Positions 48,746-64,000 of a stretch of 64,000 bases of DNA are shown here, piece by piece. The notes below the pieces were generated by a model, which ran no database searches, was not told the DNA's origin, and saw only the letters and a list, made by a program, of their open reading frames with translations. Position numbers and translations under genes: made by a program. The DNA comes from a virus. The DNA lies in the IMG/VR virus record IMGVR_UViG_3300011113_000664, positions 96,001 through 160,000 of that record; one strand, written 5' to 3'. The number at the start of each line of letters is the position of its first letter. Position 1 is the first letter of the stretch.

Positions 48746-49699
48746 ATGAAAGTTTTTTATTATTGCCCCAATCTTAACCATCCTTCAGGTGGTATGGGTG
48801 TTTTATTTAAACAAGCTAAAATTCTTGCTGATAATGGTTATGATGTTACACTTCTTTATGAAGGAGATGCTGAATTTAACCCTACTTGGATGGAGTTTAG
48901 TATCTCACACATCCCCAAAGTCAAAATAAATGGTCTAGGAAGCCTCAGAATCGATTCAAATGACCTCTTGGTAATACCCGAAGGTTTTGGTAATTTGATT
49001 GATTCTACGAAGAATATGAAGTGCAAAAGGACAGTTCTTGCACAGAGTTGGATTTACATTTACACCTCAATGCCACAGCCAAAATCTTGGAAAGAATCGG
49101 GTATTGAGAAAGTAATTAGTGTATCTCAAGGTATTTCAGAATACATACAAAAACATATGCCTGGGATTGAGATTCATCAATATAAACAATCTATAAGTCC
49201 AATATTTAAATCAAATTTGGATAAAGCATTTAGAGTTTGTTTTTCATCCTCAAGGTCAAATACGCAACAGATGAATACACACAATCTTATTAGTATTGTT
49301 AAATCATCAGATAAAAGATTAAGAAATACACAATTTATTGAATTAAAAGGTATGTCAAAACAACAATTTGCAAATGAACTTGCTGATTGTGCTTTTTGTC
49401 TTTATACAGATGAAATTGCAGGGTTTGGTACTCTTCCGTTAGAAGCAATGGCATGTAATACCCATGTAGTTGGATTCTCAAACATTGGTAATAAAGAATA
49501 TGTAAGAGATAATAATGGATTTTGGTGTCAAAATGCGGATTATCATACACTTACTGATAAACTTATTGAACAATTAAATACTTTTCTTGATGGTTATGAA
49601 TATGATGGTTTATGTTTAAATGAAATTAATACTTCATCTGAATATAACGAAGAACAAGAAAAAAATCGTATTTTAGATATATTTGAAACTTATAAATAA
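48746..49699 (+). CDS. Glycosyltransferase, GT-B (GT4-like)
   Basis: PSGGMGVL, LVIPEGF, GFGTLPLEAMACNTHVVGF. Confidence 0.85.
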   Translation: MKVFYYCPNLNHPSGGMGVLFKQAKILADNGYDVTLLYEGDAEFNPTWMEFSISHIPKVKINGLGSLRIDSNDLLVIPEGFGNLIDSTKNMKCKRTVLAQSWIYIYTSMPQPKSWKESGIEKVISVSQGISEYIQKHMPGIEIHQYKQSISPIFKSNLDKAFRVCFSSSRSNTQQMNTHNLISIVKSSDKRLRNTQFIELKGMSKQQFANELADCAFCLYTDEIAGFGTLPLEAMACNTHVVGFSNIGNKEYVRDNNGFWCQNADYHTLTDKLIEQLNTFLDGYEYDGLCLNEINTSSEYNEEQEKNRILDIFETYK

Positions 49700-49700
49700 T

Positions 49701-50540
49701 ATGCTTTTAAACGCAATAGTTTTTTCAAAAGATAGACCAATGCAACTTCATTTGTTGCTTGAGTCTATTTTAAAAAATTTTAATGTCGAAGATTATAAAT
49801 TAAATATTCTCTACAAAGCATCTAATGATGAATATAATAGGGGATATAATATGGTTAGGGATTTATTTCCTCAATTTACATATAAAAAGGAAGAATCTTT
49901 CAAAGAAGATTTATTATCTCTTTTTAATGAATCTCAATACACAGTATTTTTTACAGATGATGATATTATATACAATCCATTAAGAACAACAAATGAGGAT
50001 TTATTTAATATTTTTCAATTTAGTAATTGTTTTTGTTTTTCATTAAGATTGGGTTTAAATACCACTGAATGTTATACAATGCAAAAATTAAATAAATTAG
50101 AAAATTATAAAACTCATAGTTTTTACCATGATATTAATCTAATTGAACCAATTATTTCATGGAAGGTTAAAGATGGTACAAATGATTATGCATATCCAAT
50201 GTCAGTAGATGGCCATATTTTTAAAACTGAACTTATTAAATATTTATGTGAAGTATTGGAATACACTAATCCAAATTTATTTGAAGGTTTTTTATCAAAA
50301 GCAGCAAAAAATGATATGATAATTGCATCATACGAACATAGTAAACTTGTTAATTCGCCAATTAATAGAGTTCAAGAAACATTTCAGAATTTATCAGGAC
50401 TTAAATATAAATACACATCTGAAGATTTAAATGAAATGTATTTAGATGGTGTAACACTTGATTTTAAAAAAATGAATTTTGAAGAAATTAATGGTTGTCA
50501 TCAAGAAATAAGACCAATCTTTAAAGTAAATGCAAAATAA
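49701..50540 (+). CDS. Glycosyltransferase-like, GT-A
   Basis: IVFSKDRPMQLHLLLESI and VFFTDDDI (DxD). Confidence 0.7.
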   Translation: MLLNAIVFSKDRPMQLHLLLESILKNFNVEDYKLNILYKASNDEYNRGYNMVRDLFPQFTYKKEESFKEDLLSLFNESQYTVFFTDDDIIYNPLRTTNEDLFNIFQFSNCFCFSLRLGLNTTECYTMQKLNKLENYKTHSFYHDINLIEPIISWKVKDGTNDYAYPMSVDGHIFKTELIKYLCEVLEYTNPNLFEGFLSKAAKNDMIIASYEHSKLVNSPINRVQETFQNLSGLKYKYTSEDLNEMYLDGVTLDFKKMNFEEINGCHQEIRPIFKVNAK

Positions 50541-51258
50541 TTTTTTAATAGTAAGTGCATTTTACAATGCAGCACCTTTTATAGAAAGATGCGTTGGGTC
50601 AATTATATCTCAAAATTATGGTAATTATCGTGTTCTTTTTATTGATGATGCATCAACTGATGGTACTTTTGAATTGATTGATGAACATGATAAATTTATA
50701 AAGGTTAGAAACGATGAAAATAAGGGTTTATTATATAATTATTCACATTACCTTCCATTATATGCTAATGATGATGATATAATCGTTGTTGTCGATGGTG
50801 ATGATGCTTTGCATGGAAATAAATCACTTAGTTATCTAAATGATTTTTACAATGAGCATGGTTGTATGGTTACATATGGTCAATCCATTTGGACAGATGG
50901 TAGAAAAGGGTTTGCAAGACCATACACAGAACAAGAATTTAAAAATTTGAGAAAAACACAATTTATTGCATCACATTTAAGAACATTTAAATATATATGC
51001 TTTAAAGAAATCATTAATCAAGACCCTGAATTGAATTCTTTTAAAGATGATAATGGTGAATTCTTAAAAGCTGCACCCGATGTCGCAATAATGTTTCCTG
51101 TAATGGAAATTGCAGGATTTGATAGGGTAAAATATATTGATAAAATTTTACATTTGTATAATTTTCATAATCCATTATCAGAACATAATGTTCACCAACA
51201 ATTACAATGGGATTGCCATACAATTGTATCAAATAAAAAACCATTAAAAACACTATGA
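50530..51258 (+). CDS. Glycosyltransferase family 2
   Basis: SAFYNAAPFIERCVGSI, FIDDASTDGT, VVDGDDAL. Confidence 0.9.
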   Translation: MQNNFLIVSAFYNAAPFIERCVGSIISQNYGNYRVLFIDDASTDGTFELIDEHDKFIKVRNDENKGLLYNYSHYLPLYANDDDIIVVVDGDDALHGNKSLSYLNDFYNEHGCMVTYGQSIWTDGRKGFARPYTEQEFKNLRKTQFIASHLRTFKYICFKEIINQDPELNSFKDDNGEFLKAAPDVAIMFPVMEIAGFDRVKYIDKILHLYNFHNPLSEHNVHQQLQWDCHTIVSNKKPLKTL

Positions 51259-52010
51259 TTAATCTTATTGTTAATACAAATCACGGATTATTTTCAAATG
51301 TATTATGTGCAATGTCAGCACTACATTATGCAGATGATAATAATCTAAATTTAAATATAAATATCACAAATAATAGATATACTGATAATAATGAAAATAT
51401 TTGGGATTTATTATTTAATCAACCAAAATTAATAAATCCTGAAAGTGAAAATACACTTATTGATAATTGGACACCATATGGGTGTACTTTTTGTTCAACT
51501 CTAAATGAGACTAATGCTATATTATATCAAAATTTATTAAAAAAATATGATATTATAAGACAAAAAGATATAGATATATGTAAAAATTTCTTTCAAGGTG
51601 AAGATTTAACAAAAGTTATTGGTATTCATAAAAGAGGAACAGACCATTATCTTCATGGTAGTTTTATACCATTGGATAGATATTTTAATAGTATTGATGA
51701 AGAAATTGAAAAGAATAAATATGAGAAAGTTTTTTTAATAACTGATGAAGAAGAAACTGTTAATCTTTTTATACAAAAATATGGAAGAAATTTAATATAT
51801 ACCGATAGTTTTAGAAGTACTGATAGTAGACCTATTCATGATTATTCTTTTAAAAATATAGGTAATAGACTTTTTGATGTTTATCATGATGCATTAAAAT
51901 TATCACTATGTGATAAAATTATTGTTACATCAAGTAATGTTTCTGCATTTTCAATTATTGCCAATAATAATAAATTTAAATATATTGATACTGACATTGT
52001 ATACAGATGA
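51255..52010 (+). CDS. Fucosyltransferase-like (NodZ/GT23/GT11-type)
   Basis: GLFSN, IGIHKRGTD (GDP-Fuc-binding HxRxxD), FLITD, LSLCD.II.TSSNVS. Confidence 0.75.
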   Translation: MINLIVNTNHGLFSNVLCAMSALHYADDNNLNLNINITNNRYTDNNENIWDLLFNQPKLINPESENTLIDNWTPYGCTFCSTLNETNAILYQNLLKKYDIIRQKDIDICKNFFQGEDLTKVIGIHKRGTDHYLHGSFIPLDRYFNSIDEEIEKNKYEKVFLITDEEETVNLFIQKYGRNLIYTDSFRSTDSRPIHDYSFKNIGNRLFDVYHDALKLSLCDKIIVTSSNVSAFSIIANNNKFKYIDTDIVYR

Positions 52011-52828
52011 TGAATAAACTACCAATTATAGACCATTTATTTTCACATGCTTCAAGTAGTAGTTTTGATAACCCAATGAATTTTATTTGGGATAGAGAAA
52101 ATATTTTGAATTATGATTTTGTTATATTGACAGATGATACTTTACATCATGTAGATTTTATTAAATCACAAAATAAAAAAGTTTATGCGTGGCTTTTAGA
52201 ATCACCACATGTAAAACCACATGCAATTGATTTTATAAAAAAAAATTATGATAAATTTGATAAAATTTTTACACATAATAAAGAATTATTAGATTTATCT
52301 GATAAATTTGTATTACAAACATATGGTGGATGTTGGATTCCAAAAGAAGAAAGAAAAATTCACGAAAAGACAAAAAGTATTTCATTTATTTCAAGTAGAA
52401 AAAGAAGTACTGAAGGACATGTTTTAAGAAATAAAATTCTTGATTACTATAATGTAAATGAAAAAGATATTGATATATTTGGAAGAGAAATTAACCCAAT
52501 AGATAATAAAATTGAAGGTCTTAAAGACTATAGATTTTCAATAACTATTGAAAATTGTAGAGAAGATTTTTATTTTTCCGAAAAATTAATTGATTGTCTA
52601 CAAACAGGCACTGTACCAATTTATTGGGGTTTACCATCAATAGATAAATTTTTTGATAAAAATGGTATAATAACATTTAATAATGTTACAGAACTTTTTT
52701 TTATTATTGAAAAAATAAATAATAATGAAATCAAATATGAAGATTATTTAGAAAGTATTTTTAATAACTTTCAATTAAGTAAAAAATATTTGTTAGCAGA
52801 CGATGATATATATAACCTATTAAAATAA
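52007..52828 (+). CDS. GT10-like alpha-1,3-fucosyltransferase
   Basis: WLLESP and YRFSITIEN..YFSEKLIDCL..GTVPIYWG. Confidence 0.8.
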   Translation: MMNKLPIIDHLFSHASSSSFDNPMNFIWDRENILNYDFVILTDDTLHHVDFIKSQNKKVYAWLLESPHVKPHAIDFIKKNYDKFDKIFTHNKELLDLSDKFVLQTYGGCWIPKEERKIHEKTKSISFISSRKRSTEGHVLRNKILDYYNVNEKDIDIFGREINPIDNKIEGLKDYRFSITIENCREDFYFSEKLIDCLQTGTVPIYWGLPSIDKFFDKNGIITFNNVTELFFIIEKINNNEIKYEDYLESIFNNFQLSKKYLLADDDIYNLLK

Positions 52829-52829
52829 C

Positions 52830-53513
52830 ATGGATTTTACTTTTGGAATTTGCAAATCAATTGAATCAGTTCATTTAGAGAATATTATTGACTCAATAAG
52901 AAATCAAAATATACCAAATTATGAAATTATAATTGTAGGTTCAAATCATCAAATACTTGGTGATGATATTAAAAATATTAATTTTGATGAAACAGAAAAA
53001 AGAGGTTGGATAACTAGAAAAAAAAATTTAATCACAAAAAATGCAAAATATGAAAATATAGTTTATTTGCATGATTACATTTTTTTTACATATAAATGGT
53101 ATGAAGGTCAATTAAAAAGTGGTAATGATTTTCATATTAGAATGGATAAAATTATAAATCTTGATGGTTCAAGATTTAGAGATTGGTGTATATGGCCACA
53201 TAATAATAATGAAATGGATGAAATAATAAAAAGAGATATTATGATTCCATATAATATTACACATTTATCAAAGTATATGTACATATCAGGTGCATATTGG
53301 ATTGGTAAAAAAAATATAATGAAAGAATATCCACTTGATGAAAATTTATTATGGGGAGAAAGTGAAGATGTTATTTGGTCAAAACAAATAAGGGAAAAAT
53401 ATCATTTTAATATGAATATTAACTCAACTGTTAAATTATTAAAACAACAGAACAATCATGGTTTTGGGCAACCAACACAACAAATTATAAATATTTTAAA
53501 AAATTATGAATAA
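52830..53513 (+). CDS. Glycosyltransferase family 2-like
   Basis: IIDSIRNQNIPNYEIIIVG, IVYLHDY, WGESEDVIW. Confidence 0.75.
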   Translation: MDFTFGICKSIESVHLENIIDSIRNQNIPNYEIIIVGSNHQILGDDIKNINFDETEKRGWITRKKNLITKNAKYENIVYLHDYIFFTYKWYEGQLKSGNDFHIRMDKIINLDGSRFRDWCIWPHNNNEMDEIIKRDIMIPYNITHLSKYMYISGAYWIGKKNIMKEYPLDENLLWGESEDVIWSKQIREKYHFNMNINSTVKLLKQQNNHGFGQPTQQIINILKNYE

Positions 53514-54219
53514 AGTAGAATTTATTAAACAAAACTTTAAAGATTTCTATATTGATAGAGGTCCTGAAAATGGTATCCTTCAAGGAACAAAATACGCAGG
53601 ATGTGCAACACATTGTAGAGCATGTTTGAATACAATTGTCAGAATGATTAAACCAAAATCAATTCTAGAAATTGGTTCTTGGCATTATGATAGTACTAAA
53701 ATTATGTCAGAAGGTATGAGTACATATTTAAACGATGATGAAGGTACTATCGTAACATTTGATATAAAATATGGTGGATACGATGGTTTTGGTAGTTCAG
53801 TAGGATTACACAAAAGAATTAAACCATTGTATTGGTATCCTTATAAAACAGGTTATGATACTTGGAAATTTACCGACCCAGGAATTGTTTATAAAGATTT
53901 TGTAAATTATGAAAATGAAGAGTTATTTGATATGAATCAAAAAATTCTTGAGGATGTAACACCTGATGGTGGTTTTGATTTGATTTTTGTTGATGGTGAC
54001 CACTCTTATGAAGGTGCTAAAAAAGATTGGGAACATGCATTAAAAGTTTCACACAAAGAAACACTTATTGTAATTGACAATGTTTGGGATATCAGATTAA
54101 ATGAGGTTAGGAAATTTTATGATGATTTGAAAACAATTAAATGGGATTTTGAAGAATGGAATGATGAACATAAAAATGTTAACATGGTTCAAGATACCGC
54201 AATCAGTTTAACTTACTAA
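53506..54219 (+). CDS. Class I SAM-dependent (O-)methyltransferase
   Basis: KPKSILEIGS, FDLIFVDGDHSYEGAKKD, IVIDN. Confidence 0.85.
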   Translation: MNKVEFIKQNFKDFYIDRGPENGILQGTKYAGCATHCRACLNTIVRMIKPKSILEIGSWHYDSTKIMSEGMSTYLNDDEGTIVTFDIKYGGYDGFGSSVGLHKRIKPLYWYPYKTGYDTWKFTDPGIVYKDFVNYENEELFDMNQKILEDVTPDGGFDLIFVDGDHSYEGAKKDWEHALKVSHKETLIVIDNVWDIRLNEVRKFYDDLKTIKWDFEEWNDEHKNVNMVQDTAISLTY

Positions 54220-55580
54220 TGATTAAATTAATAATTTTTGATTTAGATGGTGTATTAGTGGAAGCTAAAAATATTCATTTTGAAGCACTCAATAAAGCAT
54301 TAAAAGAATATAAAATTAGTTGGGATGAACATTTATCATTTTATGATGGTTTAAAAACCAATGAAAAATTAGAAATGCTCCACCAAAAAAAGGGTTTACC
54401 AAAAGAATATTTCAAAAATATTTGGAAGGAAAAACAAAAATACACACTTGAAGCTTTAAAAAATCTAAATCAATCAAATATTTTAATTAATTGTATAGAT
54501 TCACTTGCTAAAGATGGATATAAACTAGCCGTATGCTCAAATAGCATTCGTAAAACAGTATTAACTGTTCTTAGCAGGTTAGGTATAATTGAGTATTTTG
54601 ATTTGATTTTATCAAACGAAGATGTTAATAATAGCAAACCACATCCTGAAATTTATTGGTCTGCAATTTCAAAATTAAATGTACTTCCCGAAGAAACATT
54701 AATTGTTGAAGATTCCCCATATGGATTATTAGCAGCTAACAGAAGTAATTCACATATTTTAAGGGTTAAATCACCTCATGACGTATTTTATGGTGGTATT
54801 AAACAAAAAATATACGAAATTAACACAAGTAGTAAAAATATGAAACCTAAATGGACTGATAAAAAACTTAATGTACTAATACCAATGGCAGGTTCAGGTA
54901 CAAGATTTAGGGAGGCAGGTTATACATTCCCAAAACCATTAATTGATGTCAATAATAAACCCATGATTCAGGTTGTTGTTGATAATCTAAATGTAGATGC
55001 TAATTTTATATTCGTTGTTCAAAAAGAACATAGAGAAAAATATAATTTAGATACTTTATTAAATTTGATTTCACCAAATTGCACTGTCATTGAAACGGAT
55101 GGTGTAACAGAAGGTGCAGCTTGTACTGCATTACTAGCAAAAGAATTTATTGATAATGATTCACCATTATTTTTTGCTAATTCAGACCAATTTGTTGAAT
55201 GGGATTCAACAGAATTTATGTATAAAATGAATGAAACTAATGCCGATGGAGGTATTGTAACATTTCAATCAACACATCCAAAATGGTCATTTGTTAAATT
55301 AGATGAAAATGGTTATGCAACTGAAGTTGCTGAAAAAAAACCAATTTCAAACATAGCAACTGTTGGTTATTATTATTGGAAACATGGTTCTGATTTTGTT
55401 AAATATGCAGAACAAATGATTTTAAAAAATATTAGAGTCAATAATGAATTTTATGTTTGCCCTGTTTTTAATCAAGCTATTGAAGATGGTAAAAAAATTA
55501 GAACATTTGATATTCAAAAAATGTGGGGATTAGGAACACCCGAAGACTTACAAAATTTTTTAAATAATTTTAACTCATGA
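54219..55580 (+). CDS. HAD phosphatase fused to a sugar-phosphate nucleotidyltransferase-like domain
   Basis: N-terminal FDLDGVL, KPHPEIY and VEDSPYG. C-terminal IPMAGSGTRF..GY..PKPLI, NSDQ, EKKPIS and GLGTPEDL. Confidence 0.88.
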   Translation: MIKLIIFDLDGVLVEAKNIHFEALNKALKEYKISWDEHLSFYDGLKTNEKLEMLHQKKGLPKEYFKNIWKEKQKYTLEALKNLNQSNILINCIDSLAKDGYKLAVCSNSIRKTVLTVLSRLGIIEYFDLILSNEDVNNSKPHPEIYWSAISKLNVLPEETLIVEDSPYGLLAANRSNSHILRVKSPHDVFYGGIKQKIYEINTSSKNMKPKWTDKKLNVLIPMAGSGTRFREAGYTFPKPLIDVNNKPMIQVVVDNLNVDANFIFVVQKEHREKYNLDTLLNLISPNCTVIETDGVTEGAACTALLAKEFIDNDSPLFFANSDQFVEWDSTEFMYKMNETNADGGIVTFQSTHPKWSFVKLDENGYATEVAEKKPISNIATVGYYYWKHGSDFVKYAEQMILKNIRVNNEFYVCPVFNQAIEDGKKIRTFDIQKMWGLGTPEDLQNFLNNFNS

Positions 55581-56203
55581 TTTTTGTTTTTGGAAATAGT
55601 CATGCACATGTGTTTACAAACACACATCCTGCAACACTTGGATTAGGAGGTCAAAATGATAATTTTACATCAGTTTCATTAGGTCCAACTATTGCCTATA
55701 ATTTTTATGAACATCATTATTTAACAATGTTAAATTGGGTTAATCGTTTAAATATTAATAAGGAAAAAGATTATATTGTTTTAGCGATTGGTGAAGTTGA
55801 TTGTAGATGGCATTTACCATATCAAGCATCAATACAAAATAAAACAAATGAAGAAATCGTAACTGAATGTATTGATAGATATTTTAGAGTTTATCTAGAT
55901 TTAAAAAATAAAGGTTATAAAATTATTGGTTGGGGAGGCCATCCCTCAACAATAAGTGGACACAATAATGACCCAAATAATCCTGTTTTTGGTGATTGTT
56001 TAACTAGGAATAAGATAAGTTTATATTGGAATAATCTCTTAGAAAAGAAATGTTTAGACAATGAAATCACATTTATTTCAATTATAAACGATTTAATTGA
56101 TGAAAATGGTTTAACAAAAATGGAATATTTTGATGATTATTGTCATTTAAATTATAATAATATAAAAGATAAATTAAATTATTTATTTAAAAAATTTATA
56201 TGA
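55577..56203 (+). CDS. SGNH/GDSL-like esterase or acyltransferase
   Basis: VFGNSH near the N-terminus, GEVDCR, terminal DYCH (DxxH). Confidence 0.65.
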   Translation: MIFVFGNSHAHVFTNTHPATLGLGGQNDNFTSVSLGPTIAYNFYEHHYLTMLNWVNRLNINKEKDYIVLAIGEVDCRWHLPYQASIQNKTNEEIVTECIDRYFRVYLDLKNKGYKIIGWGGHPSTISGHNNDPNNPVFGDCLTRNKISLYWNNLLEKKCLDNEITFISIINDLIDENGLTKMEYFDDYCHLNYNNIKDKLNYLFKKFI

Positions 56204-57159: not shown

Positions 57160-58013
57160 TGAAAATTACATTATTCAACGATAATCACAGAGGTGATTTG
57201 TTTTTAAGTAGAATGTTTATCCAACCACTACTAAATTTAAATGCTGAAATAACATTTTATCACAATCAAAATAAATATTTTTTTAAAGATATTGAAAAGA
57301 AATATTCAAATTTTAAAGAAGTTTGTGGTATACCAAAAGAGATTGATACTAAAGGTGATGATATACTTGAAAAAAATATAATAAATTGTTGGGTAGCAAA
57401 AGGTGGTGGTAAATATGTTAAAAATGAAGGTTGTTCATTTTTTGCATATAAAAACATGGTTGATGTAATTTATAAACATTATAACTTAGACATTTATGAG
57501 AATAATGAAGAACTTTTACCAATTATAAATTTTGATTATTTAGATTCAAAATCTTTACTTAAAGATTTTATGACTAATCTTAAAGATAGATACAAAAAAA
57601 TCATATTAATATCTAATGGAAATGTTGAGTCAGGTCAAGCAATTAACTTTGATTTTAACTCAACAATTAATTTTTTAGCAAATAAAAATAAAGATTGTTT
57701 ATTTTTATTAACACAAAGTACCAATATAAATTTACAAAATGTATTATACACAAGTGATATAACAAAATTAAATCCAGATTTATTAGAAATTTCTTATATA
57801 TCAACTTTTTGTGATATTATTGTTGGAAGAACTTCAGGTCCATATACATTTTGTACACATAAAGATAATATAATGGACAATAATAAAACATTTATATGTT
57901 TTTCTTTTAATAAAAAAGAAGGTGCTTGGTTTGAAGATGGTAATGCCAAATGGATATGGTCTGATAATCAAAGTGTTACTAATGTTATGTCTTTATTGGA
58001 CAAAAATATATGA
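57159..58013 (+). CDS. Putative GT-B glycosyltransferase (GT9-like), paralogue A
   Basis: HRGDLFLSR, SGQA.NF and EISYISTFCDIIVGRTSGP. Paralogous to 60727..61581. Confidence 0.55.
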   Translation: MKITLFNDNHRGDLFLSRMFIQPLLNLNAEITFYHNQNKYFFKDIEKKYSNFKEVCGIPKEIDTKGDDILEKNIINCWVAKGGGKYVKNEGCSFFAYKNMVDVIYKHYNLDIYENNEELLPIINFDYLDSKSLLKDFMTNLKDRYKKIILISNGNVESGQAINFDFNSTINFLANKNKDCLFLLTQSTNINLQNVLYTSDITKLNPDLLEISYISTFCDIIVGRTSGPYTFCTHKDNIMDNNKTFICFSFNKKEGAWFEDGNAKWIWSDNQSVTNVMSLLDKNI

Positions 58014-58417
58014 TTATATATAACCCAACAATTGAAGAACTAAAAGATTTTTTCATAAAAAATCAAAAAAATCAAGCAAGTTTTAGATATTTTAAAACTA
58101 GAGATTTTGGTATAATAAAAAACCATATTAAAACTATACTTTTAAAATATAAAGACAATATAGTTGGGTACGGTCATTTAGATAAAGATGAGAACAACCA
58201 AATATGGTTGGGTATTATGGTCTGCGATGAATGTGTTGGTCTTGGTTATGGTAAAATCATAATGAATGAACTTTTAAAAAATCAAGATTACAATATAAAT
58301 CTATCAGTTGATATTGAAAACAATATTGCAAAAAAATTATATGAGAAGAATGGGTTTATTGTTGTAAAAACAACACCAACATTATATATAATGGAGAAAA
58401 ATAATCGTATTTTATAA
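58010..58417 (+). CDS. GNAT family acetyltransferase
   Basis: WLGIMV...GLGYGKIIM and LSVDIENNIAKKLYEKNGF. Confidence 0.88.
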   Translation: MIIYNPTIEELKDFFIKNQKNQASFRYFKTRDFGIIKNHIKTILLKYKDNIVGYGHLDKDENNQIWLGIMVCDECVGLGYGKIIMNELLKNQDYNINLSVDIENNIAKKLYEKNGFIVVKTTPTLYIMEKNNRIL

Positions 58418-58428
58418 TAAAAAAAATT

Positions 58429-58737
58429 ATGGCAGATACATTAGGAAATATTGTTGACAAATTAATAACTGTTGACATGAAAATGTGGAACAATCAAGAA
58501 CTTCTTTATGAAATCAGGAGAATGACATTTGAAGAATATCTTGAAAAATATTTTAAATCCGAAGATGGTGCAGAAAAACTGTGGCAAATCCTAAAAAAAG
58601 CATGTGATTTGAATGTTCAAAGAAATCAATTAATAAATGAAGTTGATGAGAGAATAATTGAATTAGTAAATGCAAAAATAAATGGTGAAGATTTAGATAA
58701 CGGTAAATTCTTACAAAGAACACATAAAACATATTAA
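58429..58737 (+). CDS. Small helical protein (DUF4254/DUF6165-like), paralogue A
   Basis: DTLGNIVDKL..KMW..E and NVQRNQLINEVD. Confidence 0.6.
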   Translation: MADTLGNIVDKLITVDMKMWNNQELLYEIRRMTFEEYLEKYFKSEDGAEKLWQILKKACDLNVQRNQLINEVDERIIELVNAKINGEDLDNGKFLQRTHKTY

Positions 58738-59828
58738 TGATACCAATTTATAAACCATATCTTACAAAGGAGAATCTAAAATATGCACACGAAGCAATAG
58801 ATTCGGGTTGGATTTCATCTCAAGGTGAATATTTAGATTTTTGTAAAAATGAAATTAAAAATATAATTGGCTCAAATAAAATTATTTTAACAAACAATGG
58901 TACTACTGCTACACATTTATTAGCAATAGCATTAAAATATAAATATCCACACATAAATAAAATTATTGTACCAAATAATGTTTATGTAGCTGCATGGAAT
59001 TCATTTTTATTTGATAAAAATTATGAGTTAATACCAATTGATGCTGATTTAGATACTTGGAATTTTAATGTTAATGAAATAGAGGACAAAGTAGATGAGA
59101 ATACAGCTATATTAGTTGTACACAATATTGGTAATGTAGTAAATGTTCCTGAACTTAAAAGACGTTTTCCAAATACGGTTATTATTGAAGATAATTGTGA
59201 AGGATTTTTCGGTAAATATGAGGATAAATATACAGGTACAGAGTCATTTGTATCTTCTGCATCATTTTTTGCTAATAAAACAATTACATCAGGAGAAGGT
59301 GGATTATTTATGACAAATGATGAAGAAGTATTTGATTACATTAACACTGTTAAAAATCAAGGACAATCTCAAGAAAAGTTTGTACATAATATTCTTGGAT
59401 ATAATTATAGAATGACAAACATTCAAGCTGCTATTCTATATGGACAATTATTAAATACAAAAGAAATAGTTGAAAAAAAGAAAATTGTATTTAATGAATA
59501 CAAGAAAAATCTTAAAGATGTTGAATGTATTTCTTTTCAAAAAGAAGAAGAGAATACTAAACATTCAATGTGGATGTTTGGTATAAGAATTAATAATTTT
59601 AATATTAATAAAAAGAAAGATTTAGAATTACATCTTTATAAATCAGGTATTGAGACAAGACCAATGTTTTATGATATAAAAAAACATGATTATTTAAAAA
59701 ATATTAATACTGAAACTAAAAATGCTGAATTATTACAAACACAGTGTGTGATATTACCATCATTTCCAAATCTAACAAAAAGTCAAATAAATTTTATTTG
59801 TGACAAAATAATAAAAATAGTAAAATGA
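58737..59828 (+). CDS. DegT/DnrJ/EryC1/StrS aminotransferase (perosamine synthase-like)
   Basis: SGWISSQG, NNGTTA, IIEDNCE, SFFANKTITSGEGG (PLP Lys), GYNYRMTNIQAA, IETRPMF, LPSFP. Confidence 0.93.
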   Translation: MIPIYKPYLTKENLKYAHEAIDSGWISSQGEYLDFCKNEIKNIIGSNKIILTNNGTTATHLLAIALKYKYPHINKIIVPNNVYVAAWNSFLFDKNYELIPIDADLDTWNFNVNEIEDKVDENTAILVVHNIGNVVNVPELKRRFPNTVIIEDNCEGFFGKYEDKYTGTESFVSSASFFANKTITSGEGGLFMTNDEEVFDYINTVKNQGQSQEKFVHNILGYNYRMTNIQAAILYGQLLNTKEIVEKKKIVFNEYKKNLKDVECISFQKEEENTKHSMWMFGIRINNFNINKKKDLELHLYKSGIETRPMFYDIKKHDYLKNINTETKNAELLQTQCVILPSFPNLTKSQINFICDKIIKIVK

Positions 59829-60730
59829 AGAAAATATTATTTGTTAATCATACACAACAAAGATGTGGTGTGTATCAATATGGTAATAGATTATTTAATA
59901 TTTTAAAAAAATCTAAAAATTATGAATTTATACTAATTGAATCAGACAATGCTTCTGATTTTTTTAAAATTTACAATGATATTAAACCTGATGGTGTTGT
60001 TTTTAATTATCATGGTATAACTTTAAAATGGGTAGACAATGAAGTTTTAAGTAATATTACTGTGAAAAAATATAAAGTTGACCATGAATCACCAGGAAAT
60101 TTACCATTTGATTATATTATTGAGCATGAAATTATATCAAATAAACTTGGTATTGAAAGACCAATATTTGAAGATGTTCAATTGGAATATAAAAAAAATG
60201 ATATACTTACATTTGGAAGTTTTGGTTTTGGTTTTAAATATAAAGGATTTGAAAATGTATGTGCTACAATAAATAATTTGTACGATGAGGCAATTATTCG
60301 TTTAAATATAACATTCCCATTTTATAGTGACCCAAATGGACATATTTCATATGAAATTTCACAAAGTTGTCGTTCTGTTATTACAAAACCAAATATAAAT
60401 TTAATAATAACACATGATTTTTTAAGTGAATTAGATATTTTAAATTTTATGTCGAATAATGATATGAATTTATTTTTTTATGAAAATGCAAATGGTAGAG
60501 GTCTTTCATCCGTAATGGATTACGCTCTTAGTATTGATAGACCTGTTGCAATAACTAAGTCTCACATGTTTAGACATGTTTTTGATGCATCACCATCTAT
60601 TTTTGTTGAAGACTTAGATATTGACACCATTTTAAAAAATGGTACTGAACCAATAAAAAAATTAAGAGAAAAATTTTCAAATAAAAAATTAATAAATACA
60701 TTTGAAAATATATTAAATAATACTTTATGA
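59825..60730 (+). CDS. Putative glycosyltransferase (GT-B)
   Basis: CGVYQYG, FGSFGFGFKYKGF, GLSSVMDYALS..RPVAIT. Confidence 0.6.
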   Translation: MKKILFVNHTQQRCGVYQYGNRLFNILKKSKNYEFILIESDNASDFFKIYNDIKPDGVVFNYHGITLKWVDNEVLSNITVKKYKVDHESPGNLPFDYIIEHEIISNKLGIERPIFEDVQLEYKKNDILTFGSFGFGFKYKGFENVCATINNLYDEAIIRLNITFPFYSDPNGHISYEISQSCRSVITKPNINLIITHDFLSELDILNFMSNNDMNLFFYENANGRGLSSVMDYALSIDRPVAITKSHMFRHVFDASPSIFVEDLDIDTILKNGTEPIKKLREKFSNKKLINTFENILNNTL

Positions 60731-61581
60731 ATATTGTTAATTTTTTTAATTGCGCTCATAATGGTGATTTACATATTTCTAGAGAATATGTTAAAGATTT
60801 AATTAATATATTAAATCCTGATAAGGTATATTATCATCATTTTAATAATCCTTCATTAATGAAAGACTTAAATTGTGAATTTCTTCAATTTGTTCGTCAT
60901 CCTAATAATATATTCATACCAATTATGAATTCAGATACAGAATTGTACATAGATACTTGGATTGGTCAAAATAGAGAAGCATTAAATTTATATTCAGGAT
61001 GTAATTTCCCATCACTTTACAAAGTGATGAGACATATTTATGAAAAATTTAATATTACCCATTTAATGAAGGATATTGAATACTATATACCTTCTATTAA
61101 TTATGAAATATTTGAAATCGAAAAAGCAAAAAATTATTTTGAAAATAATAAAGATAAAAAATTTATTTTAGTATGTAATAACGATGTAAGGTCTGGTCAA
61201 GCTTCTAATTTCAATATGAATAATCTTATTGAAATGATTTGTGATAAATACACAGATTATATTATTATAGCGACAAATAATATGGGAGGTACTATTGATA
61301 GAGAAAATTTTATTTTTGCTGATGATATTATTGGTGATACATCAAGCAGTTCAAATTTAAATGAAATATCATATATAAGCACTAAAACTTCTCTAATAAT
61401 TGGTAGGTCATCAGGACCATATAGTTTTACTTTAGTAAAAGAAAATTATAAAAATAATAAATTTATTTGCTTGTGTGGTTCTTATGAATATGCTTGGTAT
61501 TCAAATACAGGTGAAGATATTACATGGAGTGATAATTATGATGAAAACAATATTATGGATTTAATTTCTAAAAAAATATGA
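60727..61581 (+). CDS. Putative GT-B glycosyltransferase (GT9-like), paralogue B
   Basis: HNGDLHISR, SGQASNF, EISYISTKTSLIIGRSSGP. Confidence 0.55.
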   Translation: MNIVNFFNCAHNGDLHISREYVKDLINILNPDKVYYHHFNNPSLMKDLNCEFLQFVRHPNNIFIPIMNSDTELYIDTWIGQNREALNLYSGCNFPSLYKVMRHIYEKFNITHLMKDIEYYIPSINYEIFEIEKAKNYFENNKDKKFILVCNNDVRSGQASNFNMNNLIEMICDKYTDYIIIATNNMGGTIDRENFIFADDIIGDTSSSSNLNEISYISTKTSLIIGRSSGPYSFTLVKENYKNNKFICLCGSYEYAWYSNTGEDITWSDNYDENNIMDLISKKI

Positions 61582-62798
61582 AAGAATTATTTACACTAGG
61601 AGAACTATATGTTTCCGATTTTTTAAAAGATGGTGAATCTCCAAGAGGAGATAAAACAGAAATGAAAATGATGTTAGAAGAAAATGGTGCTGTAAGACTT
61701 GAAAAAATAGCACCTCTTGATACCATGTATGGAAAATATTGGTATAGGTCTGGCATTAATAATACAATGAAGGTAGAATTAAAAAATATTGTTGATTCTA
61801 TAATGAGTGTTATTAAATTAAAAGAAAATGACCTTTGGATTGATATTGCATGTAATGATGGTACAATGCTTAGTCAAATACCAAATTATTTAATAAAAGT
61901 CGGTATTGACCCTGTAGATGATACATATAAAGTAGAATCTGAAAAACACGCAAATCTAATCATACAAGATTATTTTAGTTCTGATGTTTTTAAAAAATCA
62001 AAGTTTGGTAAATTAAAAGCAAAAGTTGTAACATCAATTGCAATGTTTTATGATTTAGAAGAACCAAAAAAATTCATAAATGATATTAAAGAAGTATTAG
62101 ATGATAATGGTATTTGGGTTTTACAATTATCATACACACCACTAATGATTAAACAAATGGCATTCGATAATATATGCCATGAACATGTTTATTACTATTC
62201 ACTTTTTAATATTAAAAATATATTTAAAGAATGTGGTATTGATATTGTTGATGTACAATTAAATGATATAAATGGAGGTTCTTTCAGGATTTATTGTATG
62301 AAAGAAATAGCCGATAAAACAAAATTTAGTACACAACCATACAGAGATGTATGTAATTTTAGAATAAATTCACTATTAGAATATGAAAAAACTCTAAATT
62401 TAGATAAAGAAAAAACATGGGTTGATTTTTATAATAATATAAATCAACTAAAAGAAAAAACAGTTTCTTTTATAAAAGAAGAGAAGGCTAAAGGTAAAAA
62501 AATATGGGGGTATGGTGCATCAACAAAAGGAAATACATTACTCCAATATTTTGGTCTTGACAATACATTAATTGATGGTATTGCTGAAAGAAGCATCTAT
62601 AAATTTGGATTAAAAACCGTAGGTACTGAAATACCAATTTGTTCTGAGGATGAAATGCGTAAAGCAAATCCCGATTATTTATTAGTATTACCTTGGCATT
62701 TTATTAATGAATTTATAGAAAGAGAAAATGAGTTTTTAGATAATGGCGGTAAATTTATAGTACCATGTCCAAAATTTGAAATAATTGGAAAAAAATAA
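61578..62798 (+). CDS. NDP-sugar C-methyltransferase
   Basis: YWYRSG, IDIACNDGTML, GIDP, FDNICHEHVYYYS, GGSFR, GYGASTKGNTLL, PDYLLVLPWHF, GGKFIVPCP. Confidence 0.9.
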   Translation: MKELFTLGELYVSDFLKDGESPRGDKTEMKMMLEENGAVRLEKIAPLDTMYGKYWYRSGINNTMKVELKNIVDSIMSVIKLKENDLWIDIACNDGTMLSQIPNYLIKVGIDPVDDTYKVESEKHANLIIQDYFSSDVFKKSKFGKLKAKVVTSIAMFYDLEEPKKFINDIKEVLDDNGIWVLQLSYTPLMIKQMAFDNICHEHVYYYSLFNIKNIFKECGIDIVDVQLNDINGGSFRIYCMKEIADKTKFSTQPYRDVCNFRINSLLEYEKTLNLDKEKTWVDFYNNINQLKEKTVSFIKEEKAKGKKIWGYGASTKGNTLLQYFGLDNTLIDGIAERSIYKFGLKTVGTEIPICSEDEMRKANPDYLLVLPWHFINEFIERENEFLDNGGKFIVPCPKFEIIGKK

Positions 62799-62812
62799 AT
62801 ATATTTATTGAT

Positions 62813-63481
62813 ATGGTATTTTATTCACAGGCTAATCAAGATAAATGGGTTTATAATGTACTATCACATAAAAAAAATGGATTCTATGTTGATATAGGTG
62901 CGTATGATGGTATACAGACAAGTAATACATATATTTTTGAAAAAGATTTAAATTGGAAAGGTATTTGCATTGAACCAAATGCAGATGCGTATCAAAATTT
63001 AATTAAAAATAGAACTTCAAAAAATATTATGTGCGCTTTATCTGATTATGATGGGTTTTGTAATTTTTTAGGTGATAAAATAATTGATAAAAACAATTCA
63101 AATACACCATGCTATACACTAGAAACACTTTTGACACAAAATTCAGCTCCAAAAGAAATTGATTATATATCAGTAGATGTTGAAGGGCATGAATATGATA
63201 TACTTAAAGATTTTGATTTTAATAAATGGAATGTAAAACTTATGACAATTGAACATAATTTTTACATTGAGGGTTCAATCTATAAAGATAAAATATATGA
63301 TTTAATGACAAAAAATAATTTTCTTAGAATAGTTGAGGATGCGGTTTGTTTAGATAGTAATCCTGCTTATTTTAATAAAATTTACGAGGATTGGTATATA
63401 AATAAAGAATTTTATGATTCTTTGAATAATGAAATTAAATTTAAAATATCAACTCAACCAAAAGACAAAACTTTATATTAA
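62813..63481 (+). CDS. FkbM-family methyltransferase
   Basis: YSQANQD, GFYVDIGAYDG..SNT, WKGICIEPN, IDYISVDVEGHE. Confidence 0.9.
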   Translation: MVFYSQANQDKWVYNVLSHKKNGFYVDIGAYDGIQTSNTYIFEKDLNWKGICIEPNADAYQNLIKNRTSKNIMCALSDYDGFCNFLGDKIIDKNNSNTPCYTLETLLTQNSAPKEIDYISVDVEGHEYDILKDFDFNKWNVKLMTIEHNFYIEGSIYKDKIYDLMTKNNFLRIVEDAVCLDSNPAYFNKIYEDWYINKEFYDSLNNEIKFKISTQPKDKTLY

Positions 63482-63732
63482 TGGAAACAATAGGTAATTT
63501 AATTGATAAACTTTCAGTAGTCAATATTAGAATATGGATGGCTGAAGATATTAAAAGAAATAAAGAAGCATCTGATAAAGAAATTGCAGATGCAACTAGA
63601 ATTACAAATGTTGCTAATTCACAAAGAAATGATTTAATACAGGAAATAGATGAAAAATTAAATCATATGGCAAAGACAGGTGAATTACAAAAATTATATA
63701 AACAAGGCTCAAATAAAATGTATGGAAAATAA
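63481..63732 (+). CDS. Small helical protein (DUF4254/DUF6165-like), paralogue B
   Basis: ETIGNLIDKLS..RIW.AED and NSQRNDLIQEID. Confidence 0.6.
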   Translation: METIGNLIDKLSVVNIRIWMAEDIKRNKEASDKEIADATRITNVANSQRNDLIQEIDEKLNHMAKTGELQKLYKQGSNKMYGK

Positions 63733-64000
63733 TTTAGTAATAGGCAACACATCACAACTATCATACTATTTTCCACAAAATTATACAAAAATTTCATCAA
63801 GAAGTATTGATGAAAATATTTTCAATAAAAATTGGGATTCGATATATATAACATTTGCTAAACAAAATGTTTTTGATACTACGGATTCAAATTTTGTTGA
63901 TATTAATACATATTATACACTAGATTTAATTAATAAACTCCTAGATTTATCTAATAAAATAGTTGTTTATACGAGTTGTGAAATGTTTAATAATCATTAT
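63722..64000 (+). CDS. NAD-dependent epimerase/reductase (RmlD-like?), 3' truncated
   Basis: Not in the ORF track. ATG at 63722 reads MENNLVIGNTSQLSYYFP...KIVVYTSCEMF and stays open to the window end. Resembles a degenerate Rossmann start and the SDR (Y/F)xS(S/T)xE region. Confidence 0.5.
   Translation, partial: MENNLVIGNTSQLSYYFPQNYTKISSRSIDENIFNKNWDSIYITFAKQNVFDTTDSNFVDINTYYTLDLINKLLDLSNKIVVYTSCEMFNNHY

What the first reader, a model, noticed from the sequence alone, without database searches (positions are those of the whole stretch)
48746..64000. A >15 kb phage-encoded glycan assembly and decoration pathway
Seen: at least 20 co-oriented, mostly overlapping or abutting genes. They include about ten glycosyltransferase-like ORFs (GT2, GT4, two GT10-like, one NodZ/GT23-like, two GT9-like), a DegT aminotransferase near a GNAT, a sugar C-methyltransferase, two O-methyltransferase types, an SGNH enzyme, a HAD-nucleotidyltransferase fusion and a probable epimerase. 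No flippase, Wzy polymerase or other multi-TM protein is visible. Knowledge: this enzyme set resembles O-antigen/capsule pathways and the fibril-glycosylation clusters of giant eukaryotic viruses. Inference: soluble enzymes with no export machinery point to a cytoplasmic acceptor, most plausibly virion proteins carrying a complex fucosylated, methylated, N-acetylated glycan (alternatively DNA), rather than host serotype conversion.
Basis: partly seen in the sequence, partly recalled or inferred. Interest (0 to 1): 0.8.

Follow-up and report, generated by a model that had tools for sequence, protein, structure and literature searches.

The report
Hypervariable glycan-building island in a jumbo phage
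An uncultured T4-like phage carries 21 back-to-back genes that make GDP-activated sugars and join them into a methylated, N-acetylated, probably fucose-type glycan; close relatives have different genes at the same spot, and what gets glycosylated (virion, host surface or DNA) cannot be told from sequence.

Summary
Window 48746-64000 is the first 15.3 kb of a 16.7-kb, 21-gene, single-strand operon that ends 1.5 kb beyond the window with a bona fide GDP-mannose 4,6-dehydratase. Eleven genes pass Pfam thresholds for glycan families. Fold or Atlas evidence adds four more glycosyltransferases, including the "GT9-like" pair.

The contig is an IMG/VR phage record of 170 kb, T4-like, estimated 52% complete.

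New here: seven relatives with 85-94% identical flanking genes all start the island with the same three genes (GT4, a viral GT-like protein, GT2; one lacks GT2). Six of the seven then carry unrelated sets of sugar enzymes, so the island is serotype-like. No exporter, polymerase or initiating phosphotransferase was found on the contig or in the relatives' islands.

LOS/LPS-core-type assembly needs no such genes, and half the genome is unseen. Hints for virion glycosylation:
- two island GT families have their nearest structural relatives in giant eukaryotic viruses;
- a highly conserved GT sits in the baseplate operon.

Comparable clusters are published for T4-like cyanophages (P-SSM2, S-SSM7, S-SCSM1), with function untested. 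Verdict: a new member of a known kind; acceptor unresolved (virion ~0.42, host envelope ~0.35). Earlier notes of this scan concern this same genome only.

The parts
48746..49699 (+). GT-B glycosyltransferase (Pfam Glycos_transf_1, CAZy GT4-type); first gene of the trio conserved in relatives
   Evidence: Pfam 36.6 bits, above cutoff. Present in all 7 relatives in two allelic forms, about 90% or about 60% identical.
49683..50540 (+). 285-aa unassigned protein 'A', probably GT-A-like; second conserved gene
   Evidence: No Pfam, NCBIfam or PHROG hit. The nearest Atlas clusters are viral and auto-named 'glycosyltransferase' (0.99); a Bacteroidota GT2 cluster scores 0.94. In GenBank phages it matches only the record pair LR756501/LR756503 (735-kb uncultured phage assembly). 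58-85% identical in relatives.
50530..51258 (+). GT2 glycosyltransferase; third conserved gene
   Evidence: Pfam Glycos_transf_2 E 1e-19. Present in 6 of 7 relatives.
51255..52010 (+). NodZ/GT23-like fucosyltransferase-superfamily protein (tentative)
   Evidence: Pfam NodZ E 2e-4, below cutoff. An H-K-R-G-T-D motif is seen in the sequence.
52007..52828 (+). GT10-type (alpha-1,3-fucosyltransferase family) enzyme
   Evidence: Pfam Glyco_transf_10 40.8 bits. 30-44% identical to genes of T4-like cyanophages and huge phages.
52830..53513 (+). 227-aa unassigned protein 'B', member of a very large conserved family linked to GT10 and the HAD-NTP fusion
   Evidence: More than 1072 homologous clusters at 58-81% identity, none with a Pfam domain. 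Same neighbours in jumbo contigs L096 and L097. No PDB relative.
53506..54219 (+). SAM-dependent O-methyltransferase-like enzyme
   Evidence: Pfam Methyltransf_24 41.9 bits and Methyltransf_3 23.7 bits.
54219..55580 (+). Fusion of a beta-phosphoglucomutase-family HAD domain with a sugar-1-phosphate nucleotidylyltransferase; inferred sugar-phosphate mutase plus NDP-sugar (probably GDP-mannose) synthase
   Evidence: Pfam HAD_2 E 2.5e-34 and NTP_transferase E 6e-15. NCBIfam beta-PGM family.
55577..56203 (+). 208-aa SGNH/GDSL-like protein 'C' (probable O-acyl esterase or transferase)
   Evidence: GDSL_2 E 0.011, below cutoff. Invariant GNSH, G72 and D187xxH190 in A5. Weak PDB hit 2hsj. 232 homologues at 52-90% identity in the rows listed.
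56200..57159 (+). Second GT10-type enzyme
   Evidence: Pfam Glyco_transf_10 41.6 bits.
57159..58013 (+). GT-B glycosyltransferase 'D' of an uncatalogued family, GT9 (heptosyltransferase)-like fold
   Evidence: 21 homologues only, none with Pfam. AF2 pLDDT 91.4. Foldseek WaaC/WaaF E 5e-7, TM 0.55. Best viral match is a Solumvirus protein, 26% identity, TM 0.81.
58010..58417 (+). GNAT N-acetyltransferase
   Evidence: Pfam Acetyltransf_7 and Acetyltransf_1 above cutoff. Weak PseH similarity.
58429..58737 (+). 102-aa DUF4254-like small protein 'E'
   Evidence: Matches the same spot in LR756504 as the DUF4254 gene at 63481; 73% identical there and linked to DegT.
58737..59828 (+). DegT-family PLP sugar aminotransferase
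   Evidence: Pfam E 4.7e-69. Nearest NCBIfam models are LegC, PseC and 4-amino-4,6-dideoxy types.
59825..60730 (+). GT-B glycosyltransferase 'G' (GT1/GT4-like fold)
   Evidence: Atlas model pTM 0.89 matches Glycos_transf_1 clusters at TM 0.75-0.85. The nearest clusters are viral, one of them 100% Nucleocytoviricota.
60727..61581 (+). Paralogue 'F' of D (GT9-like GT-B)
   Evidence: 32% identical to D in alignment A1 and shares its invariant residues.
61578..62798 (+). NDP-hexose C-methyltransferase
   Evidence: Pfam Methyltransf_14 E 9e-46 plus Methyltransf_23.
62813..63481 (+). FkbM-family methyltransferase
   Evidence: Pfam Methyltransf_21 E 8e-19. NCBIfam fkbM_fam.
63481..63732 (+). 83-aa DUF4254 protein
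   Evidence: Pfam DUF4254 37.8 bits.
63680..64000 (+). 5' part of a 278-aa SDR-like protein (probable 4-reductase or epimerase). It continues to window-equivalent 64516 and is followed by GDP-mannose 4,6-dehydratase at 64513-65481 (L001:4513-5481), the last gene of the operon.
   Evidence: Weak GDP_Man_Dehyd/SDR hit E 1e-3. A YxxxK motif is seen. The dehydratase scores TIGR01472 417.8 bits, above the 415 cutoff.
26278..27681 (-). 467-aa GT-B-like glycosyltransferase in the baseplate/fibre operon; a possible partner acting on virion proteins (inference)
   Evidence: phrog_7162 E 3e-30. Weak GT1/GT4 Pfam hits. 88-93% identical in 9 close relatives' loci, more conserved than most of its neighbours, and always placed after the gp25-like gene.
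25736..26275 (-). RmlC-type NDP-4-keto-6-deoxyhexose 3,5-epimerase; possible supplier for the 6-deoxyhexose branch
   Evidence: Pfam dTDP_sugar_isom E 1.9e-66. Absent at this position in all 11 related loci.

Best explanation
This is a self-supplied glycan-assembly island of an uncultured T4-like jumbo phage.

Shown by family assignment:
- A HAD (beta-PGM-type)/nucleotidyltransferase fusion and a GDP-mannose 4,6-dehydratase feed a GDP-4-keto-6-deoxyhexose hub.
- An SDR-like reductase, a DegT aminotransferase with a GNAT, and a C-methyltransferase are the enzymes available to branch from that hub.
- Eight to ten soluble glycosyltransferases are present: GT4, GT2, two GT10, one NodZ-like, two GT9-like, one further GT-B, and two tentative GT-A-like.
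- Two O-methyltransferases and an SGNH-like enzyme can decorate the product.

Inferred: the branch products are a fucose/rhamnose-type 6-deoxyhexose, an N-acetylated 4-amino-4,6-dideoxyhexose and a C-methyl sugar. The GTs add them one by one on the cytoplasmic side.

Shown by comparison: the first three genes are shared by close relatives, and the rest is swapped for other sugar genes in six of the seven. This fits a conserved inner glycan on a conserved acceptor with a variable, serotype-like outer part.

Inferred as the most likely acceptor: exposed virion proteins, glycosylated before or during assembly as in giant eukaryotic viruses and mycobacteriophages. The conserved GT in the baseplate operon may act as a protein-directed enzyme.
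For: Gene content and GDP pathway. Operon structure.

Conserved GT4-A-GT2 trio followed by unrelated glycan genes (FkbM x5, DegT x2, GT10 x2, RXYLT1_C x2, and one each of GT17, GT25, GT8, GT11, GT47) in relatives whose flanking genes are mostly 85-94% identical.

No TM-rich protein, exporter or initiating transferase on the contig or in the relatives' islands.

The D/F family's best viral structural match is a giant-virus protein (Solumvirus, 26% identity, TM 0.81), followed by Bodo saltans virus. The nearest Atlas clusters of G are viral, one of them wholly Nucleocytoviricota. Giant viruses have no LPS to modify.

A GT-B gene is fixed after the gp25-like baseplate gene and is among the most conserved genes there.

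The enzyme mix (4,6-dehydratase, aminotransferase, N-acetyltransferase, methyltransferases, many GTs) resembles the published fibril and capsid glycosylation clusters of giant viruses (general knowledge). Virion glycosylation by phage GTs is established for mycobacteriophages (Freeman et al. 2023, cited in PMC12619734).
Against: There is no direct evidence of glycosylated virions for this or, to my knowledge, any T4-like phage.

The island lies after replication genes (UvsX-like, FEN, gp41-like helicase), not in the structural module. A candidate late promoter precedes it at canonical distance only in some relatives.

The GT families seen here and in relatives (GT9-like, GT25, GT8, GT10/11) are the classical LPS-core/LOS families.

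Genes shared with giant viruses could reflect horizontal transfer without a shared function.

The contig is estimated at 52% complete, so exporters could lie elsewhere.

S/T-rich tracts in fibre proteins are ordinary for fibres and identify no acceptor.
Confidence: 0.42

Rival explanations
1. Host-envelope remodelling. The phage GTs act at the inner face of the host membrane on lipid A-core (LOS-type) or on Und-PP-linked intermediates. Host MsbA, Wzx or ABC machinery exports the altered glycan. This changes the infected cell's surface, for example to block superinfection, to stop progeny adsorbing to debris, or to alter grazing.
For: The GT families are typical of LPS-core, LOS and O-antigen synthesis: a GT9-like fold, GT10, and GT25, GT8 and GT11 in relatives. 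Such pathways need only soluble or peripheral GTs (general knowledge), so the lack of exporters fits equally well.

This is the published reading of the homologous clusters in T4-like cyanophages P-SSM2, S-SSM7, S-SCSM1 and S-SCSM2R (PMC1079782, PMC3037559, PMC9602691, PMC12801897). GT10 homologues are shared with those phages. Strain-level diversity of host glycans could drive island variability.
Against: The reading is untested even in cyanophages; PMC3037559 says it is not known whether those genes function.

This is a lytic-type T4-like phage with a 21-gene investment, and pre-existing surface LPS is not replaced quickly.

A trio conserved across relatives with different outer gene sets needs a conserved host acceptor.

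The nearest structural relatives of the D/F and G families are in giant viruses, which have no LPS. GMD is only 49-59% identical to bacterial GMDs of many phyla, so there is no sign of recent capture from a host locus.
Confidence: 0.35
2. DNA hypermodification. The island glycosylates a modified base in phage DNA to evade restriction, as in T-even phages and the 5hmC-glycan gene clusters of Pyle et al.
For: Phage GTs related to LPS and teichoic-acid enzymes do decorate 5hmC with mono- to trisaccharides (bioRxiv 10.1101/2023.12.21.572611). An arms race with restriction enzymes would explain the variability. One Atlas feature-neighbour set of ORF 59825 carries PF11440, the T4 alpha-glucosyltransferase family (score 0.97).
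Against: No ThyA-family hydroxymethylase, Tet/JBP dioxygenase or C5 DNA methyltransferase is on the 170-kb contig, whereas an ordinary ThyX is present (the Tet_JBP search had no positive control). Eight to ten GTs plus C- and O-methylation and an amino-sugar branch far exceed known DNA glycans. The PF11440 link is a generic GT-B resemblance.
Confidence: 0.06
3. Another or mixed role. The island could make a soluble or secreted glycoconjugate or a glycolipid, serve several acceptors at once, or be largely dispensable cargo ('stuffer') in a headful-packaging genome.
For: The stuffer idea was raised for cyanophage LPS clusters (PMC3037559). Sub-modules such as GT10-B-HAD/NTP and D/F-like-DUF4254-DegT move as cassettes between unrelated jumbo phages.
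Against: All 21 ORFs are intact and tightly coupled. They are 79-98% identical to those of relative L007, without decay. Families B and C are held at roughly 50-90% identity across hundreds to more than a thousand clusters, which indicates strong purifying selection.
Confidence: 0.17

Closest known systems
'LPS' / cell-wall-modification gene clusters of T4-like cyanomyoviruses (P-SSM2, S-SSM7 'Lipsvirus', S-SM2, S-SCSM1, S-SCSM2R)
   Same: A T4-like myovirus backbone carries a large co-oriented block of NDP-sugar enzymes, methyltransferases and many GTs without exporters. S-SCSM1 has GMD, GDP-fucose synthase and NodZ/alpha-1,2-fucosyltransferases. S-SSM7 has epimerases, a GT10-like transferase, a methyltransferase, GT11 x3 and GT25. 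The GT10 genes are homologous at 30-42% identity. Function is untested in all of them.
   Different: The lineage differs (helicase only about 24% identical to cultured T4-likes), and earlier notes of this scan predict a Bacteroidota host. The position differs: between the gp41-like helicase and Mre11, not near tRNA, hli or phoH. This island has an amino-sugar/C-methyl branch, GT9-like enzymes and the B and C families. The serotype-like replacement among near-identical relatives was shown here; I did not find it described for the cyanophage clusters.
Fibril and capsid glycosylation gene clusters of giant eukaryotic viruses (Mimiviridae, chloroviruses)
   Same: Both have virus-encoded nucleotide-sugar synthesis (4,6-dehydratase, aminotransferase, N-acetyltransferase; GMD in chloroviruses) plus methyltransferases and multiple soluble GTs, with clade-specific gene content (general knowledge). 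The D/F and G families have their nearest structural neighbours in Nucleocytoviricota.
   Different: This is a bacteriophage, glycosylated virions are not shown here, and most genes are not orthologous.
Mycobacteriophage virion glycosylation (Freeman et al. 2023, Cell Host Microbe; cited in PMC12619734)
   Same: Phage-encoded cytoplasmic GTs would modify capsid or tail proteins directly. Here too a conserved GT sits inside the structural operon.
   Different: Those systems have few GT genes, placed next to the structural genes, and use host sugar nucleotides. This one is a 21-gene island with its own precursor pathway, placed after the replication genes.
Bacterial LOS / LPS outer-core and O-antigen loci
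   Same: The enzyme families match, the GC content is low, gene content varies between close strains, and soluble GTs add sugars sequentially.
   Different: No initiating phosphoglycosyl transferase, flippase, polymerase, ligase or ABC transporter was found. The island sits on a phage genome between replication and repair genes.

Membership tests
Glycan ('LPS-like') gene clusters of large T4-like aquatic myoviruses | T4-like myovirus genome | tested here: met
   gp41-like helicase, gp25-like protein, baseplate wedge, exonuclease and FEN are present, and the contig is an IMG/VR virus record.
Glycan ('LPS-like') gene clusters of large T4-like aquatic myoviruses | Contiguous block of nucleotide-sugar enzymes plus multiple GTs | tested here: met
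   21 genes, 11 of them passing Pfam cutoffs for glycan families.
Glycan ('LPS-like') gene clusters of large T4-like aquatic myoviruses | Homologous genes shared with the cyanophage clusters | tested here: met
   GT10 is 30-42% identical to genes of S-SM2, S-T4, S-SRM01, S-SCSM2R and S-SSM7. Most other genes have no match in GenBank phages.
Wzx/Wzy- or ABC-dependent O-antigen/capsule locus | Initiating phosphoglycosyl transferase, flippase/polymerase or ABC exporter in or near the locus | tested here: not met
   No multi-TM protein lies in the cluster, and none on the contig has more than 4 predicted TM segments. No such family appears among 40 island ORFs of relatives. The contig is only about 52% complete.
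Virion glycosylation system (mycobacteriophage type) | GT genes embedded in the structural gene operon | tested here: inconclusive
   The island is not embedded: it follows the helicase. A separate conserved GT-B at 26278-27681 is embedded.
Virion glycosylation system (mycobacteriophage type) | Glycans detected on capsid or tail proteins | not testable with these tools
   This needs virions, and no isolate exists.
Giant-virus-type virion glycosylation cluster | Virus-encoded dehydratase, aminotransferase, N-acetyltransferase, methyltransferases and GTs, with lineage-specific content | tested here: met
   for gene content; for variation among relatives.
Giant-virus-type virion glycosylation cluster | Glycosylated virion surface structures | not testable with these tools
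   There are only structural-homology hints.
Phage DNA sugar-hypermodification gene cluster | Enzyme making a hydroxymethyl- or hydroxy-pyrimidine acceptor (ThyA-type hydroxymethylase, or C5-MT plus TET/5mYOX) | tested here: not met
   PF00303, PF12851 and PF00145 are absent from the contig and ThyX is present. The PF12851 search had no positive control, and the contig is incomplete.
CAZy GT9 (heptosyltransferases), for ORFs 57159 and 60727 | Sequence membership in the GT9 family | tested here: not met
   No Pfam, NCBIfam or PDB sequence hit, even with a profile. The similarity is at fold level only (TM about 0.55, 7-11% identity). The proteins are GT9-like in fold but are not members.

The most novel reading that the evidence does not exclude
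Aquatic jumbo phages may coat their virions with self-made, serotype-like glycans. In this reading a conserved inner part is laid down by the GT4-A-GT2 trio, possibly with the baseplate-operon GT, and swappable outer cassettes are shared with giant viruses. This would be a phage counterpart of bacterial O-antigen diversity.

A further speculation follows from the Bacteroidota host predicted by earlier notes. A fucose-rich, methylated coat could mimic algal polysaccharides and serve as bait for host glycan-capture (SusC/D-type) surface proteins, so that the glycan takes part in adsorption.
Probability: 0.3. Interest if true: 0.85.

Novelty: new member of a known kind. Interest (0 to 1): 0.55.

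Why it matters
Large glycan gene blocks in lytic aquatic phages have been known since 2005, but what they glycosylate has never been tested.

This lineage offers a clean comparative system. The backbones are near-identical, the three-gene start is conserved, and the sugar cassettes are interchangeable. There is also a separate, highly conserved GT in the baseplate operon. These features give concrete targets for testing whether the glycan ends up on virions, host envelope or DNA.

If virions are the acceptor, phage 'serotypes' would become a factor in adsorption, particle stickiness and grazing in natural waters. The island also exposes several abundant enzyme families with no annotation: B, C and the GT9-like D/F family.

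Tried and rejected
- Single-sequence AlphaFold of ORF 57159 failed (pLDDT 36.6). It was repeated with an alignment.
- PDB sequence and profile searches gave nothing usable for ORFs 59825, 60727, the D/F profile, the B profile and the 467-aa GT.
- NCBIfam and PHROGs gave nothing usable for the unassigned ORFs.
- BLASTP of G against GT4 and of B against GT2 showed no significant similarity. hhalign of B against GT2 gave only a local match.
- GMD as a host marker failed: it is 49-59% identical to bacteria of many phyla.
- The candidate late-promoter motif CTAWTTAWA is not enriched overall (14 found, 15.3 expected). Most copies do lie about 14-34 nt upstream of starts. The copy at 47996 lies inside the upstream coding sequence and is not conserved in L003, so expression timing stays open.
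- The S/T-richness scan of proteins highlighted only fibre-type proteins, which is ordinary.
- DUF4254 has no useful literature.
- Recent capture of a host O-antigen locus was rejected: nearly all genes lack close bacterial matches, and island GC (about 24-25%) is near the phage's 27.6%.

Full report
**What is there**

The window is bases 96001-160000 of a single 170,056-bp IMG/VR virus contig. Its GC content is 27.6%, it is classed linear, and CheckV estimates it at 52% complete. It is a divergent T4-like myovirus. It has a baseplate wedge subunit, a gp25-like protein, an exonuclease, a UvsX/RecA-like protein, a FEN and a gp41-like helicase. The helicase is only about 24% identical to those of cultured T4-likes and of a 484-kb uncultured phage.

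From 48746 every ORF is on the + strand. Neighbouring ORFs overlap by 1-17 nt (the SDR-like ORF by 53 nt as called) or are at most 14 nt apart. The block does not stop at the window edge. It continues with a 278-aa SDR-like protein (63680-64516) and a 4,6-dehydratase (64513-65481). A metallophosphatase (the Mre11 part noted by an earlier report), an AAA ATPase and a KTSC protein follow. The operon is therefore 21 genes and 16.7 kb.

**Family assignments**

Twelve genes pass Pfam gathering thresholds, eleven of them for sugar-related families:
- GT4-type
- GT2
- two GT10
- a Methyltransf_24/O-MT
- a HAD + NTP_transferase fusion
- GNAT
- DegT
- a Methyltransf_14 C-methyltransferase
- FkbM
- the 4,6-dehydratase
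- DUF4254 (not sugar-related by annotation)

NCBIfam identifies the dehydratase as GDP-mannose 4,6-dehydratase (TIGR01472, 417.8 bits, cutoff 415). The dTDP-glucose dehydratase model scores only 118.9 bits. The same search places the HAD half in the beta-phosphoglucomutase family and the aminotransferase nearest to LegC, PseC and 4-amino-4,6-dideoxy types.

- NodZ-like (51255): 20.6 bits, below the cutoff.
- 'Epimerase' (63680): SDR-like, E 1e-3.
- SGNH (55577): GDSL_2 E 0.011, invariant GNSH/G72/DxxH in alignment A5, and a weak PDB hit to 2hsj.

The 'GT9-like' pair (57159, 60727) belongs to a family with only 21 hits among 5.8 billion proteins and no Pfam domain. With alignment A1 the AlphaFold model reached pLDDT 91.4. 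Its best PDB matches are the heptosyltransferases WaaC and WaaF (E 5e-7, TM about 0.55). This is likeness of fold, not membership.

ORF 59825 is a GT1/GT4-type GT-B by its Atlas model. ORF 49683 is GT-like only as an Atlas lead. ORF 52830 remains unassigned. A crude hydropathy scan finds no TM segment in any cluster protein, and nothing with more than four on the contig.

**Inferred pathway**

The assignments suggest this route:
1. Sugar phosphate is converted to GDP-hexose by the HAD mutase-like/nucleotidyltransferase fusion.
2. GMD makes GDP-4-keto-6-deoxymannose.
3. Branches follow: reduction (SDR, perhaps with the RmlC-type 3,5-epimerase at 25736-26275), 4-amination plus N-acetylation (DegT, GNAT), and C-methylation.
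4. GT10, NodZ-like and other GTs transfer the sugars.
5. O-methylation and O-acyl editing finish the glycan.

The enzyme identities are tool results. The order and the products are inference.

**Comparative result (new)**

Seven IMG/VR contigs carry a helicase 85-90% identical to ours. In all of them the gene string helicase / 123-aa ORF / (225-aa ORF) is followed by GT4, protein A and GT2; L003 lacks GT2. After that trio the content differs completely in six of the seven. Only L007 shares our set, at 79-98% identity. In L005 and L006 the island ends at Mre11 after about 8.7 kb.

I scanned forty ORFs from the variable parts of five relatives. They hit FkbM (5), DegT (2), GT10 (2), RXYLT1_C (2), and one each of GT17, GT25, GT2, GT8, GT11, GT47, DUF5672 and DUF6492, plus oxidoreductases. 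No exporter or initiating transferase was among them, and the ORFs are essentially free of TM segments (two have one predicted segment each). Even the trio is more diverged than its flanks: GT4 occurs in two forms, about 90% and about 60% identical.

Sub-modules travel between unrelated jumbo phages:
- GT10, a D/F-like gene, a DUF4254-like gene (73% identical) and DegT (60%) lie in the same order in the 636-kb phage LR756504.
- GT10, B and the HAD-NTP fusion (58%) lie together in a 261-kb IMG/VR contig.

**Where the glycan goes**

I confirmed the absence, including in the rest of the cluster. The argument is still weak, for three reasons:
- LOS/LPS-core assembly proceeds on lipid A-core with soluble or peripheral GTs, and host MsbA flips the product (general knowledge).
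- Und-PP-linked routes could borrow host machinery.
- About half of the genome is unseen.

Two observations lean towards a viral acceptor. First, the D/F model's best match among viral structures is a Solumvirus protein (26% identity, TM 0.81, E 8e-18), then Bodo saltans virus. ORF 59825's nearest Atlas clusters are viral, and one is entirely Nucleocytoviricota. Giant viruses use such enzymes on their own particles. Second, a 467-aa GT-B-like protein (phrog_7162, E 3e-30) sits directly after the gp25-like baseplate gene. It is 88-93% identical in nine close relatives' loci, where most neighbouring structural genes are 57-88%. It keeps its place even in a relative where it is 60% identical and the neighbours 33-47%.

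The adjacent RmlC gene is unique to this phage.

Expression timing is open. A candidate late box, CTATTTATA, lies 13-15 nt before the 225-aa gene that precedes the island in L005, L006 and L008. In our phage that site has one mismatch. In L004 and L007 the island abuts or overlaps the upstream 123-aa gene with no intergenic space.

DNA is an unlikely acceptor. The contig has ThyX but no ThyA-type hydroxymethylase, no TET/JBP and no C5-methyltransferase. Known DNA glycans are mono- to trisaccharides.

**Comparison with the literature**

Equivalent blocks have been published for T4-like cyanophages:
- P-SSM2: 24 'LPS' genes, proposed to alter the host surface (PMC1079782).
- S-SSM7 and S-SM2: PMC3037559 states it is unknown whether the genes function. 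The S-SSM7 record shows epimerases, a GT10-like transferase, a methyltransferase, GT11 x3 and GT25.
- S-SCSM1: GMD, GDP-fucose synthase and NodZ/alpha-1,2-fucosyltransferases (PMC9602691).
- S-SCSM2R: 13 GTs (PMC12801897).

'Moraphages', predicted to infect Bacteroidota, have four core GT families (PMC12619734). This finding is therefore a new member of a known but functionally unexplained kind. The serotype-like architecture and the giant-virus links add to what is known.

**Verdict**

- Observation: confirmed.
- Interpretation: partly supported.
- Acceptor: virion proteins about 0.42, host envelope about 0.35, DNA about 0.06, other or mixed about 0.17.
- Earlier notes of this scan on the same genome supplied three leads: the predicted Bacteroidota host, the late-promoter motif, and the GT plus rmlC pair. 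I tested these only in part.

Noticed in passing
window 52830-53513 (+): The 227-aa protein 'B' has no hit in Pfam, NCBIfam, PHROGs or PDB. Even so, it has more than 1072 homologous 90%-identity clusters at 58-81% identity, on contigs up to 365 kb, and none in 50,697 GenBank phage records. It is always seen next to GT10, and in L096 also next to the HAD-NTP fusion. Alignment A3 has 50 invariant columns, including H81-D82-Y83 and E179-D180. It is an abundant, uncatalogued enzyme family.
   Followed up: partly
window 55577-56203 (+): The SGNH-like protein 'C' likewise belongs to a conserved unannotated family: 232 hits, 52-90% identical in the rows listed, on contigs up to 369 kb. Its invariant GNSH, G72 and D187xxH190 residues fit SGNH blocks.
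   Followed up: partly
window 26278-27681 (-): A 467-aa GT-B-like protein lies between the gp25-like baseplate gene and the fibre cassette. It is among the most conserved genes of that region across 10 relatives. The region's other genes, especially the fibre cassette, diverge much faster.
   Followed up: partly
window 25736-26275 (-): A strong RmlC (3,5-epimerase, E 2e-66) is inserted after that GT only in this phage. All 11 related loci lack it, including the contig that shares our island type.
   Followed up: partly
L001:8497-11163 (-), i.e. window-equivalent 68497-71163: A second small GT group lies on the opposite strand: a 265-aa unknown, a GT2 (E 5e-9), and a 357-aa protein 25-28% identical to the island's GT4. 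It is separated from the island by the Mre11 part, an AAA ATPase and a KTSC protein.
   Followed up: no
window 58429-58737 and 63481-63732 (+): Two small DUF4254-type helical proteins sit inside the island. One of them keeps its linkage to DegT and a D/F-like GT in the 636-kb phage LR756504 (73% identity). The family's function is unknown and it has no literature.
   Followed up: partly
window 48045-48722 (+): A 225-aa unknown gene just upstream of the island is present in five relatives and absent in two (L004, L007). A canonical candidate late-promoter box precedes it in L005, L006 and L008.
   Followed up: partly
window 31008-33419 (+): This 803-aa protein is the only one on the contig with about four predicted TM segments (residues 532-680). 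It lies in the structural region and has no PHROG hit. It might be a tape-measure or injection protein.
   Followed up: no
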